From NCBI RefSeq assembly GCF_036507355.1, contig NZ_AP027877.1: DNA of 64,000 nt; one strand, given 5' to 3'. The position numbers were made by a program. The DNA comes from Escherichia coli (GTDB lineage Bacteria > Pseudomonadota > Gammaproteobacteria > Enterobacterales > Enterobacteriaceae). Below are positions 36,801-39,800 of the stretch, in pieces; position 1 is the first letter of the stretch; every line of letters begins with the position of its first letter.

Positions 36801-39800
36801 CAACGACCACAAGCTCTTTCATGTTGTTATGTCCGCTACAGAGGGTGATGGGGTTGTGACCAACGCCAAATTGCCTGATGCGCTACGCTTATCAGGCCTA
36901 CAAATTCTCGTGCCACTCGTAGGCCGGATAAGGCGTTCACGCCGCATCCGGCAATGGTGACAAATGCCTGATGCGCTACGCTTATCAGGCCTACAAATTC
37001 TCGTGCCATTCGTGGGCCGGATAAGGCGTTCACGCCGCATCCGGCAATGGTGACAAATGCCTGATGCGCTACGCTTATCAGGCCTACAAATTCTTGCGCC
37101 ACTTGTAGGCCGGATAAGGCGTTCACGCCGCATCCGGCAATGGTGACAAATGCCTGATGCGCTACGCTTATCAGGCCTACAGATTCTTGCGCCATTCGTA
37201 GGCCGGATAAGGCGTTCACGCCGCATCCGGCATGAACATGTAGGTCAGACGCCGTAACGTTCGCACCAGCCAAGAATGGCTTTCTCGAAGCAGGCAAAAG
37301 GTGGATGCACAATGCCCGCGCCAATCATGCCGACGCCCGCATCTTTATGGGCGATGGCGGTGTTGATCACTGGCAGAATGCCGCTGCTACCCACGCGGGT
37401 GATGTCGATTGCCGATGGCACGCCCATAAAACCGAGCAGCGGAATGGTGACGTTGGGGTTTTCGCCAAGGGTGATTTCGCGCATCTGACGGGAGAAATCG
37501 ATAGCCTCTTCCACCGTGCCACCCACCAGCGCGACGATTGCAGGCGCGGTCGCCATGGCAAACCCGCCAATACCGTAGGTTTCTGTGATGGCGCTGTCGC
37601 CGATATCCAGCCCCGAATCTTCCGGCTTATAACCAGCAAACATCGGGCCGATGACCTGCTGCGCTGGGCCGGTAAACCACTGCCCCGGCAGGCCGCTGAC
37701 CCGCAGGCCGAACTCGACGCCGTTACGCGCCATGGTGGTAACGACGGTGCTGTATTCGATGCCGTGCGCCGCATCCATCGCCGCTTTACACATCGCCATC
37801 CACGTCGGGCCGGAGAAGTAGTCGCTGCTGGCGACAAACTCAAACACTTCGCGCTGTTGCTCGACGGAGTAGCCCGCCTGAATAATCCCCGGCGTCAGCG
37901 CCTGAATCAGCAGCGTCGTCCCGGCGTTATTGCGGTTATGGCACTCATCGCCCATATGCAGCGCCTGCGCCAGCATTAAGCGCAGATCGATTTCGCCGAT
38001 AATTTTCATCGCGTCGCGCAGTATTGGTCCCTGCACATCACGCATCCAGTTCAGGCGGTCAATCACGCTCTGGTCGTTAGCGCCCATACGCAAAATCTTC
38101 GCCATCTGCTCGCTCATGTTGGTATAAGCGATGTTGCCGTAGGTTTTGTTTTTTACGATGTGCATAAACATCGAGGCCGAGGTAACACCCGCCATCGATC
38201 CCACACAGTCGTGTTCGTGGCACGGCGAGAAGGTGATCTCCCCGGAGGCCGCCAGGTCAGCCGCCTCGTCGAGATCTTTCGCCAGTCCTTCGAACACCAG
38301 CGCTCCGGTGACCGCGCCTTTCATCGCGCCGCACATTTTTTCCCAGGTGATCGGCGGCCCGGCGTGAAGAATGGTTTTCGGCGTCATGCCCGGCACCACG
38401 TTAATCGCCTGATCAAAACCAATCAGCACCGGATGCGACTGGATAATGCGCTCCAGCGCCTGCTGGTTAGCGGCGGCGATTTTGTCTGCCAGCGGCGAAT
38501 CGGCAATGTTATCCAGCGCCTGCACCACCTGCATATTGCCCTGCCCCGGCGGCGTCCAGTCGAGTTGAGTCACTTCTACATGCTGCTTTTTCAGGTCATC
38601 GCTAAACATGGCGATGCCGACGTTAATAACGTTCAATGGTTGGCTAAACAGTGACTGGCTCATCAGGCTTCCTCCCCTTTGCAGATAAATTCACGCGCCA
38701 GCAATCCGGTATTGGTGCTGCTGCTCGCCAGAATCACTCCGGCATCAAGCAGCATCTGGCTTTGTTGTTCTAACGATGGCGTATCAAGATCGGTACCCAG
38801 CACATAGGCGAGAATGATCAACTCGCGTCCTTCGGCAGCGGCGATCGCTTTCGCTTCTTTGATCGCCTCGATGGTGGAGCCGACCGGATCTTCATGCGAT
38901 CCAAATCCGAGCACAAAATCCATCACGATCACCGCCACTTCTGGATCGCGCGCCTCTTCGATCAAGCGACTGATGCGGTTGGTGGGGTCAATCATTGGAT
39001 GCGGCTTGCCGTTGGTGAAGTCGTCATCGCCAAAGTCGAGGAAGGTGTGTTTGATGCTGCGGTTGATATCTTTCAGGCGGAATTCCGGATCGGGCTGAAT
39101 GTTGCTGTAGACATCGCCATGTTTTTCCATCACCGCGAACATGGTTTCGTCGCACAACGTGCCGCCGCAGAACAGGCCACGAATGTATTTCTGCTGCGGT
39201 TGCAGACGCGCACGCACATCCGCAATCAACGGCTGGTTAAGCGTATGCAGGTCGAGATTTTCCTGTTTCACGCCGGAGAGCATCACCGCTTTTAGCGCCG
39301 CTTCTTTGCTGCCGCGAGCAAACTGTAGCCCCAGCTCGTCAACCGGCGTTTCGCCACGACCGAGGAAGCAGACCACCACCGGCTTGCGGCAGGCGCGGGC
39401 GCGTTCCAGCACTTTACGGGCCACCGCAGGCGCGGGAGGTTTTGAAATCAGCGCGATAATTTCAGTTTGCGGATCGTTTTCCAGCATCCCGATGGCGTCG
39501 AGCATCATCAGGCCGCCGATTTTCTCGCTCAGGTCGCGCCCGCCGGTGCCAATCAGTTGTGAAACGCCGCCACCAAATTCATGAATGCGGACGCTCAGCT
39601 CCTGGCTGCCGGTGCCGGATGCGCCAACAATACCGATGTTGCCGCGACGCACGGCGTTACCAAAACAGAGCGCCGCGCCGTTGATAATCGCCGTGCCACA
39701 GTCTGGCCCCATCATCAGCAGCCCTTTTTCGTGGGCCAGTTGCTTGAGCGCCAGTTCATCTTCAACTGAGACGTTATCGGAAAACAGCATCACGTTGAGG

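What the first reader, a model, noticed from the sequence alone, without database searches (positions are those of the whole stretch)
36873..37235. Four tandem 93-bp BIME units between yahG and yahI, and a second three-unit array between codB and prpE
These are regular tandem arrays of paired REP palindromes: period exactly 93 bp here, about 97 bp at 17302-17568. Their regularity can mimic CRISPR-like periodicity and they generate long spurious ORFs. Because the yahG-yahI array sits inside a putative operon, it may act as an mRNA-stability or attenuation element separating yahI-yahJ expression from yahGFE, and is a hot-spot for copy-number variation.
Basis: seen in the sequence. Interest (0 to 1): 0.3.

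Follow-up and report, generated by a model that had tools for sequence, protein, structure and literature searches.

The report
Known REP/BIME repeat array (REP23, "yahH")
The 93-bp repeats between yahG and yahI are a real but already catalogued E. coli REP/BIME palindrome array (REP23, once mis-annotated as the gene yahH). Its unit number varies from 0 to 5 among strains, and it most likely acts as an RNA hairpin block that favours the upstream genes over yahI-yahJ.

Summary
Window 36867-37232 holds 3.9 head-to-tail copies of a 93-bp unit at 95% identity. Each unit is one Y-type REP and one inverted short Z-type REP. The array fills the 422-nt gap between yahG and yahI, both on the minus strand.

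The second array (17305-17568) lies between prpE and codB as stated. Its period is 94 bp, not about 97.

This is not new. The first array is REP23 of E. coli K-12, and the ORF inside it is the discredited gene yahH (X002 in EHEC).

By the published scheme, array 1 (Y + short Z, tandem, short linkers) is an "atypical BIME". Array 2 (Y variant + long Z2) is BIME-2-like.

The copy-number prediction holds. In 57 evenly sampled E. coli chromosomes the yahG-yahI site carries 0 (10), 1 (22), 2 (2), 3 (4), 4 (14) or 5 (5) units. The closest strain has 3 units against 4 here. The prpE-codB spacer also varies, from 235 to 900 bp in steps of about 94 bp.

The proposed role as an mRNA stabiliser or attenuator was not testable here. 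It matches what was recently shown for the analogous in-operon array REP325 in yjdMN. The finding is ordinary, and interest is low.

The parts
36867..37232 (.). Array 1: 3.9 tandem copies of a 93-bp BIME unit (REP23 of K-12)
   Evidence: TRF period 93, 95% matches. Spacing is 93/93. Named REP23 in PMC4765031 and PMC11551758.
37198..37231 (-). Y-type REP of unit 1 in mRNA sense (GCCGGATGCGGCGTGAACGCCTTATCCGGCCTAC). Further copies are at 37105-37138, 37012-37045 (GTAG changed to GTGG) and 36919-36952.
   Evidence: Pattern search gives 0-1 mismatch against 0.00 expected by chance. The RNA hairpin folds at -20.5 kcal/mol.
37152..37180 (+). Short Z-type (Z1-type) REP, inverted relative to Y (GCCTGATGCGCTACGCTTATCAGGCCTAC). 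Further copies are at 37059-37087, 36966-36994 and 36873-36901.
   Evidence: Pattern search gives 0 mismatches. It is 7 nt shorter at the tip than the long Z of the Rfam naRNA4 consensus. The similar long Z form flanks rayT, and the literature calls that form z2.
37181..37197 (.). 17-nt tail-to-tail linker between the Y and Z units. Others are at 37088-37104, 36995-37011 and 36902-36918. This is the most variable part of the unit.
   Evidence: Unit alignment across strains. Substitutions and a 16/17-nt length difference concentrate here.
37139..37151 (.). 13-nt head-to-head linker (ATTTGTCACCATT in mRNA sense). Others are at 37046-37058 and 36953-36965.
   Evidence: It resembles the linker of the naRNA4/REP325 consensus.
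37232..37244 (-). 13-nt spacer between the yahG stop codon (37245-37247) and the first REP stem
   Evidence: Read directly from the sequence. Other alleles have 23 nt. REPs closer than 16 nt to a stop codon are reported to lower translation of the upstream gene (Liang 2015, as cited in PMC12306157).
36823..36872 (-). 50-nt unique leader between the last REP and the yahI start codon
   Evidence: Its 3' part is conserved in all alleles, including the repeat-free one.
36819..37226 (-). yahH-like ORF (135 aa). It is an in-frame by-product of the 93 = 31x3 nt period, and its TGA overlaps the yahI ATG (ATGA).
   Evidence: ORF length and C-terminus differ among alleles (none, 30, 55, 61, 73, 96, 123, 135, 154 aa).
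37245..38663 (-). yahG (YlbE/AllG-family, DUF1116), upstream gene
35872..36822 (-). yahI (carbamate kinase family), downstream gene
36922..37177 (+). Three matches to Rfam RF02564 naRNA4 (Y hairpin, linker, Z hairpin) at 36922-36991, 37015-37084 and 37108-37177. All are on the strand antisense to the yah genes.
   Evidence: 78 bits against a gathering score of 59.5. The sense strand scores 53.9, below the threshold.
17305..17568 (-). Array 2: 94-bp units of a Y variant (GTCGGAT...ATCCGAC) plus the long Z2 REP, lying between the prpE stop and the codB leader. The first hairpin starts 6 nt after the prpE TAA.
   Evidence: TRF period 94, 2.6 copies. Dissection. naRNA4 match at 17306-17382, minus strand, 68.9 bits.

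Best explanation
The array is four tandem copies of an E. coli BIME. Each unit, read in the direction of transcription, is a Y-type REP, a 17-nt linker, an inverted short Z-type REP and a 13-nt linker. It sits in the yahG-yahI intercistronic gap of the yahDEFG-IJ gene run.

It is a member of the genome-wide REP/BIME repeat family, which is recognised and cut by the REP-associated transposase RayT/TnpA_REP. Units are gained and lost by replication slippage, unequal recombination or RayT action, which gives 0-5 units among strains.

When the operon is transcribed, the array becomes eight stable GC-rich hairpins in the mRNA.

Inferred mechanism:
(i) The hairpins block 3'-to-5' exonucleases and so protect the upstream yahEFG segment.
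(ii) The untranslated structured stretch causes partial, Rho-assisted attenuation, so fewer transcripts reach yahI-yahJ.
(iii) The first hairpin begins only 13 nt after the yahG stop codon, so it may also hinder terminating ribosomes.

The net effect would be higher upstream-to-downstream expression, tunable by unit number. The ORF 'yahH' is a by-product of a repeat whose length is a multiple of three.
For: Shown here:
- Exact repeat anatomy and REP types.
- Same-strand, tightly packed flanking genes, with no promoter-like or terminator-like site in the gap.
- The sense RNA folds far better than shuffles (MFE -206.5 kcal/mol, z = -7.06). The single Y hairpin folds at -20.5 kcal/mol.
- Palindromes are almost invariant, while linkers carry the substitutions and 1-nt indels.
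- Unit number is 0-5 in 57 sampled chromosomes, and 3 against 4 between closest relatives.
- Other genera carry a different GC hairpin or their own REP type at the same site.

From the literature:
- BIME definitions, and variable unit number at a locus (PMC3333891).
- This very locus is REP23/yahH (PMC4765031, PMC11551758).
- In EHEC the array is transcribed, possibly as part of yahDEFGIJ.
- REP325, a six-unit array inside yjdMN, both stabilises the upstream mRNA and attenuates the downstream gene about 8-10 fold, partly through Rho. Tandem gene pairs separated by REPs show a higher upstream/downstream ratio (bioRxiv 10.64898/2026.03.23.713779).
- REPs closer than 16 nt to a stop codon lower translation.
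Against: - No expression data for this locus were available, so steps (i)-(iii) are analogy only.
- The REP325 study stresses that effects depend on context, and found no general gain in half-life for REP-terminated mRNAs.
- About 18% of sampled strains lack the array altogether, and 39% have a single unit. Any effect is therefore dispensable.
- The 13-nt spacing is 23 nt in other alleles.
- If the yahH ORF were translated, Rho-dependent attenuation would be expected to be relieved (Espeli 2001, as cited).
Confidence: 0.6

Rival explanations
1. Selfish or neutral repeat. The array is simply REP/BIME DNA that landed in a permissive intergenic gap. It expands and contracts without any meaningful effect on yah gene expression.
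For: Presence/absence and 0-5 copy polymorphism occur without loss of the flanking genes. The site accepts unrelated palindromic elements in other lineages. The REP325 study finds large variance and no general half-life effect.
Against: Eight strong hairpins in an mRNA are unlikely to be inert. REP-separated tandem pairs show a biased expression ratio genome-wide. Every lineage examined with adjacent yahG-yahI has some GC-rich hairpin there.
Confidence: 0.3
2. yahH is a real protein-coding gene. The repeat encodes a charged repetitive protein, and the locus serves as a DNA element, an RNA element and a protein, as proposed for EHEC X002.
For: Ribosome-footprint signal over the five-unit ORF in EHEC (RPKM 56, coverage 0.61). 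In this window the ORF is open through all four units and ends in ATGA on the yahI start codon.
Against: - No mass-spectrometry peptides.
- The ORF is absent in the repeat-free allele. It is 30 to 154 aa elsewhere, with the frame shifted by 1-nt linker indels.
- I see no AGGAGG-like Shine-Dalgarno motif in the 13 nt upstream of the ATG, and that ATG lies inside the first REP stem.
- Multi-mapping reads and RNase-resistant hairpins can mimic footprints (inference).
- Annotators removed yahH for these reasons.
Confidence: 0.04
3. DNA-level or nucleoid role. The array acts as a gyrase binding and cleavage site, or as a source of naRNA4-like RNA that works with HU to organise the chromosome.
For: Gyrase cleavage sites are enriched in BIME-2, mainly in Y units (PMC6379681). 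Rfam naRNA4 matches exceed the gathering score. The naRNA4/HU model comes from PMC4550694.
Against: - Array 1 has the short Z type, so it is not a typical BIME-2.
- yahG, yahI and yahH do not appear in the held supplementary tables of the gyrase map.
- The above-threshold naRNA4 matches lie antisense to the only evident transcription direction.
- The 2026 study found that REP325/naRNA4 does not compact the nucleoid and that REP-REP contacts are not detectable.
Confidence: 0.06

Closest known systems
REP23 / yahH of E. coli K-12 (b0322) and X002 of EHEC EDL933
   Same: Same locus and same element. K-12 has four units in a 421-nt gap. O157:H7 has five units and a 465-nt ORF (PMC4765031).
   Different: This window's allele differs from K-12 by a few linker substitutions. 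All of its units are exactly 93 bp, so the ORF stays in one frame to the yahI ATG.
REP325 between yjdM and yjdN (naRNA4 locus)
   Same: A tandem BIME array inside a two-part operon. It has Y hairpins and a similar head-to-head linker, and it matches the Rfam model. It is shown to be a dual stabiliser and partly Rho-dependent attenuator.
   Different: REP325 has six units with the long Z2 palindrome. Here there are four units with the short Z palindrome. No experiments exist for this locus.
BIMEs flanking rayT (yafM), the 'REPtron'
   Same: Y plus Z pairs in alternating orientation with short linkers. Array 2 shares the long Z2 and the GTTGTGCGCAGA-type linker.
   Different: No rayT gene is next to either array in this window. 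Array 1 uses the short Z form.
CRISPR arrays
   Same: Regular periodicity of short palindromic repeats.
   Different: There are no unique spacers, because the sequences between the palindromes are themselves repeated at about 95% identity. Two different palindromes alternate in opposite orientation.

Membership tests
REP / palindromic unit (E. coli) | Imperfect GC-rich palindrome of about 30-37 nt, with a GTAG tetranucleotide at the foot and a mismatch in the stem | tested here: met
   All eight units carry GTAG/CTAC, except one GTGG variant at 37012-37045. The stem has an internal mismatch. Definition from PMC3333891.
REP / palindromic unit (E. coli) | Extragenic and highly repeated in the genome | tested here: met
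   Lies between the yahG stop and the yahI start. A query containing the array matches a median of 24 places per E. coli genome. Further copies in the window are at 14501-14579 and 11040-11068.
BIME (general) | [quoted passage not shown] | tested here: met
   Y on the minus strand and Z on the plus strand, tail-to-tail across 17 nt.
BIME-2 | Composed of Y and Z2 units | tested here: not met
   Array 1 has the short Z form (29 nt with tail). The form that two papers call z2 at the rayT flanks is the long one, TGCCTGATGCGACGCTGGCGCGTCTTATCATGCCTAC. Array 2 does have the long Z2, paired with a Y variant.
BIME-2 | Multiple tandem copies with a short linker S | tested here: met
   Four units with 17-nt and 13-nt linkers.
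BIME-2 | Bound and cleaved by DNA gyrase in vivo | not testable with these tools
   Literature only. The locus is not named in the held supplements.
BIME-1 | Y + Z1 as a single copy, with a long L linker carrying an IHF site | tested here: not met
   The Y + short Z composition fits. However, the element is tandem (x4) and the linker is only 17 nt.
Atypical BIME | Chimeric combination of BIME-1 and BIME-2 parts, occurring in multiple copies | tested here: met
   A short (Z1-type) unit is combined with tandem organisation, short linkers and a REP325-like head-to-head linker. The Z1 assignment is by elimination: three published types, with y and z2 identified at the rayT flanks.
Rfam RF02564 naRNA4 | Covariance-model score at or above the gathering threshold (59.5 bits) | tested here: met
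   78 bits, three times, on the plus strand. The sense (minus) strand scores 53.9 and fails. Whether an RNA is made from the plus strand was not tested.
Protein-coding gene (yahH) | ORF and reading frame conserved among strains | tested here: not met
   The ORF is absent or ranges from 30 to 154 aa, with frame shifts from 1-nt linker indels. Variation is not confined to third codon positions but to the linker.
CRISPR | Identical repeats separated by unique spacers | tested here: not met
   Whole 93-bp units, 'spacers' included, are about 95% identical.

The most novel reading that the evidence does not exclude
The repeat ORF might be translated at a low level. In that case unit number and 1-nt linker indels would act as a switch. 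In this window's allele (and in L003 and E. albertii L012) the ORF runs in frame to an ATGA overlap with the yahI start codon. In K-12 and EHEC it stops 31 nt upstream. Ribosomes crossing the array would melt the hairpins, relieve Rho-dependent attenuation and couple yahI translation to the repeat. Natural length variants would then set different yahEFG:yahIJ ratios.
Probability: 0.05. Interest if true: 0.45.

Novelty: already known. Interest (0 to 1): 0.1.

Why it matters
It matters mainly for annotation. It confirms that 'protein YahH', still called in many RefSeq genomes, is a repeat artefact. It also shows that short-read assemblies can break here.

It gives a clean natural allelic series of 0, 1, 2, 3, 4 and 5 units in otherwise similar operons. 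That series could be used to test the recently proposed role of in-operon REP arrays as dual stabiliser and attenuator.

It does not reveal a new kind of element.

Tried and rejected
- Z-type naming. I first labelled the short Z palindrome 'Z2' from memory, and scripts print that label. Checking the rayT flanks in K-12 against the wording of two papers showed that z2 is the long form. Array 1 is therefore not a typical BIME-2, and I corrected this.
- Gyrase. I looked for direct evidence at this locus in the supplements of the Topo-seq paper. There was no mention of yahG, yahH or yahI.
- Papers not held. The primary papers of Liang et al. 2015 and Bachellier et al. 1997 were not available. The 15-nt rule is cited second-hand. 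No supplements were held for Ton-Hoang 2012.
- CRISPR-like reading: rejected because there are no unique spacers.
- A promoter for yahI inside the gap: no sigma70-like match on the coding strand.
- Intrinsic terminator: none found.
- Strain identity: no complete RefSeq E. coli genome exceeds about 98% identity over a 20-kb stretch of the window (38700-58700), so the source strain was not identified.
- Two scripts failed because a locus file was not yet present.
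Full report
**1. The observation**

Tandem Repeats Finder reports an array at 36867-37232 with period 93, 3.9 copies, 95% matches and no indels. The repeat finder gives spacings of exactly 93 and 93 bp.

Read directly, each unit on the plus strand consists of:
- GCCTGATGCGCTACGCTTATCAGGCCTAC, a short Z-type REP;
- a 17-nt linker;
- GTAGGCCGGATAAGGCGTTCACGCCGCATCCGGC, a Y-type REP in the opposite orientation;
- a 13-nt linker.

The four Y and four Z copies match their consensus with 0-1 mismatch. Shuffled sequence gives none.

The second array is at 17305-17550 with period 94, 2.6 copies and 90% matches. 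A further degenerate hairpin extends it to 17568. The coordinates and the three-unit description are fair.

**2. Context**

Annotation of homologous E. coli records identifies the neighbours, all on the minus strand:
- yahJ, 34480-35862
- yahI, 35872-36822
- yahG, 37245-38663
- yahF, 38663-40210

The array fills the 422-nt yahG-yahI gap. This is the only large gap in a run of overlapping or abutting genes. No sigma70-like promoter on the coding strand and no intrinsic-terminator-like site is found there.

In the direction of transcription the gap reads as follows:
- yahG TGA;
- a 13-nt spacer;
- four copies of [Y REP, 17-nt tail-to-tail linker, inverted Z REP, 13-nt head-to-head linker];
- a 50-nt leader;
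- yahI ATG.

Array 2 lies between prpE (17575-19461) and codB (15892-17151). Its first hairpin begins 6 nt after the prpE stop. An AT-rich stretch of about 140 nt follows, ahead of codB. Array 2 therefore sits at an operon end, not inside an operon.

**3. What it is**

The published scheme, as summarised in PMC3333891, defines three classes:
- BIME-1: y + z1, single copy, long L linker with an IHF site.
- BIME-2: y + z2, tandem copies, short S linker.
- Atypical BIMEs: chimeric, also in multiple copies.

To avoid relying on memory for z1 versus z2, I read the K-12 rayT (yafM) flanks. Two papers say these flanks consist of y and z2 units. The Z unit there is the long form, TGCCTGATGCGACGCTGGCGCGTCTTATCATGCCTAC.

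The short Z unit of array 1 is therefore the z1 type. Array 1 is formally an atypical BIME, with tandem organisation and short linkers like BIME-2 but with the short Z unit. Array 2 has the long Z2 plus a Y variant (GTCGGAT...ATCCGAC), and its linker resembles the one beside rayT. Array 2 is BIME-2-like.

Note that the label 'Z2' printed by my scripts refers to the short form and is superseded by this paragraph.

Rfam has one family built from such units, naRNA4 (RF02564, from REP325). It matches array 1 three times at 78 bits on the plus strand, which is antisense to the yah genes. The sense strand scores 53.9, below the 59.5 threshold. Array 2 matches once at 68.9 bits.

**4. It is already known**

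The yahG-yahI array is REP23 of E. coli K-12, and the ORF within it is yahH (b0322).
- A y-ome review lists 'yahH (filled with REP23 sites)' (PMC11551758).
- Neuhaus et al. described the same element in EHEC EDL933 as X002: five repeat blocks, a 465-nt ORF and a frame change in the fourth block. They noted that yahH had been dropped from annotation because of its structure (PMC4765031).

My reading of an O157:H7 genome reproduces that exactly: five units, and a 465-nt ORF shifted by a 92-nt fourth unit. K-12 itself has four units in a 421-nt gap.

**5. Copy-number variation**

*Array 1.* I searched the 5,426 complete E. coli genomes with an 800-nt query made only of the two flanks, and listed 60 records evenly spaced down the ranking. 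Among the 57 chromosomes with both flanks, the gap lengths were:

| Gap length (nt) | Units | Chromosomes |
|---|---|---|
| 94-95 | 0 | 10 |
| 142 or 152-153 | 1 | 22 |
| 246 | 2 | 2 |
| 329 | 3 | 4 |
| 421-422 | 4 | 14 |
| 514 | 5 | 5 |

I verified the unit counts in sequence for one representative of each length class. The strain with the most similar flanks (99.3%) has three units. Its last two are identical to units 3 and 4 of the window, including the rare GGCCCAC variant, so a unit was gained or lost recently.

Caveat: this is a sample ordered by similarity, from a clonally biased collection. It is not a census.

*Array 2.* The prpE-codB gap falls into the following classes:

| Gap length (nt) | Rows |
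|---|---|
| about 236-242 | 12 |
| 323-338 | 28 |
| 423-424, as in this window | 9 |
| 517 | 1 |
| 611 | 1 |
| 893-900, including O157 | 4 |

The classes are about 94 bp apart. These classes were not checked base by base.

Variable unit number at a BIME locus is itself a published property.

**6. The ORF**

Because 93 = 31 x 3 and the palindromes lack stop codons in one frame, the array carries an ORF. In the window this ORF is 135 aa (37226-36819, minus strand) and ends in ATGA on the yahI start codon. Among the alleles I fetched, the ORF is absent or 30, 55, 61, 73, 96, 123, 135 or 154 aa long. A 16/17-nt length difference in the tail-to-tail linker shifts its frame.

Sequence variation sits in the linkers, while the palindromes are nearly invariant. 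That is the pattern expected for constraint on the REP structures, or homogenisation of them, and not for a protein. The ATG lies inside the first REP stem, with no evident Shine-Dalgarno sequence. EHEC footprint coverage was modest (RPKM 56, coverage 0.61) and no peptides were found. I therefore treat yahH as a by-product, with a small residual probability that it is translated.

**7. Comparison with other species**

A scan of species-representative genomes with YahG returned 80 loci. These split into loci where yahG and yahI are adjacent and loci where they are not.

Where yahG and yahI are adjacent:
- E. whittamii has 2 Y/Z units, the second truncated.
- E. albertii has two units, separated by a duplicated copy of the last roughly 45 nt of yahG.
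- Pseudocitrobacter carries 1-2 units. Its flanks are 93-96% identical to the window's in the two Pseudocitrobacter-labelled loci, which suggests transfer or mis-binning.
- Kluyvera species carry a pair of their own REP type (GTAGCCCGGG...).
- Other Kluyvera and Klebsiella carry CCCTCTCCC/GGGAGAGGG-type palindromes.
- Citrobacter amalonaticus and Raoultella carry a simple GC hairpin.

The E. coli allele without Y/Z units also has a small hairpin of the GGGAGAGGG kind. In all the loci I examined where the two genes are adjacent (L009-L026 and L042), some GC-rich hairpin follows yahG, but its identity changes. This fits either selection for an intercistronic hairpin or a permissive landing site. 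I cannot separate the two.

In many other genera a further gene of about 1.5 kb lies between the two genes.

**8. How it most likely works**

*Shown.* The sense transcript of the gap would be extremely structured: MFE -206.5 kcal/mol against -162.6 +/- 6.2 for shuffles, z = -7.06. A single Y hairpin folds at -20.5 kcal/mol.

*Inferred by analogy.* REP325, a six-unit array inside the yjdMN operon, was recently shown to do two things. It protects the upstream mRNA, and it cuts downstream expression about 8-10 fold through partly Rho-dependent termination, giving a ladder of hairpin-ended RNAs. Genome-wide, tandem gene pairs separated by REPs have a higher upstream/downstream ratio, though with large variance and no general half-life gain. 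REPs closer than 16 nt to a stop codon are reported to reduce translation of the upstream gene (Liang et al. 2015, as cited). The spacing is 13 nt here, 23 nt in another natural allele, and 6 nt after prpE.

I therefore expect the array to raise yahEFG relative to yahIJ, with the effect depending on unit number.

DNA-level roles are weaker here. Gyrase preference is documented for BIME-2, but this array is atypical and is not named in the held tables. The naRNA4/HU nucleoid model was not reproduced in the 2026 study.

**9. Verdict**

The finding is real, correctly recognised and ordinary. The element, its mis-annotated ORF, its class of function and its length polymorphism are all in the literature.

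What this check adds:
- the exact anatomy;
- a corrected subtype (an atypical BIME, not a typical BIME-2);
- a corrected period for array 2;
- a quantified 0-5 unit polymorphism;
- the note that the regulatory role remains untested at this locus.

Noticed in passing
L092 (E. coli Z1322HEC0001) 2154-3134, orthologous to window ~17152-17574: In some strains the prpE and codB flanks are more than 900 bp apart. In the one strain I opened, an IS621 (IS110-family) transposase gene sits in the prpE-codB gap, where the window has array 2. IS621 is reported to target REP sequences.
   Followed up: partly
L007 1324-1418 (E. coli PS1Phumofeces1), orthologous to window 36823-37244: About 18% of sampled E. 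coli have no Y/Z units between yahG and yahI. They have a 95-nt gap with a different small palindrome (CCCTTCTCCCTTCAGGGGAGAGGG). E. whittamii keeps part of this sequence next to its BIME, which hints that this is the older state.
   Followed up: partly
L012 3920-4234 (E. albertii NBRC 107761): The two BIME units are separated by a duplicated copy of the last roughly 45 nt of yahG plus its flank. The duplication unit there therefore included gene sequence, not just the repeat.
   Followed up: no
L006 1191-1452 (E. coli ECCWS199): A deletion runs from inside the third unit's Z palindrome into yahI, removing about 130 nt of its 5' end. yahG has an internal stop in the same strain. The repeat appears to be a deletion end-point in a decaying operon.
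   Followed up: no
L014, L015, L019 ~3920-4046 (Kluyvera and a Klebsiella-labelled MAG): The same yahG-yahI gap holds an inverted pair of a different, genus-specific REP type (GTAGCCCGGG...CCCGGGCTAC). Unrelated palindromic repeats have occupied the same site independently.
   Followed up: partly
L010 end of locus (Escherichia sp. E1V33 contig): The draft contig stops 316 nt after yahG, inside the fourth repeat unit. This looks like an assembly break caused by the array.
   Followed up: no
window 14501-14579; 11040-11100; 10362-10391; 22198-22228: Other REP elements occur in the window. One is a single Y + short-Z BIME with a 16-nt linker downstream of codA. One is a degenerate pair at 11040. 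Two are solitary GTCGGAT-type hairpins (the one at 22198 overlaps the 5' end of the prpC ORF).
   Followed up: partly
hits H37, H99, H100 (E. coli plasmids): Copies of yahI-like (92-96% identity) and yahG-like (94%) genes occur on large plasmids, so part of this gene cluster is also plasmid-borne.
   Followed up: no
window 38700-58700: No complete RefSeq E. coli genome matches this 20-kb stretch at more than about 98% identity, and the last roughly 1 kb is missing from the best hits. The yahG-yahI flanks are only 96.5% identical to most four-unit strains in the sample. The source strain is an unusually divergent E. coli or this region is recombinant.
   Followed up: partly
L001 5663-7210 (E. 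coli PI24): yahF (annotated fdrA) carries an internal stop in this strain. Together with L006, this suggests the yah cluster is decaying in some lineages.
   Followed up: no
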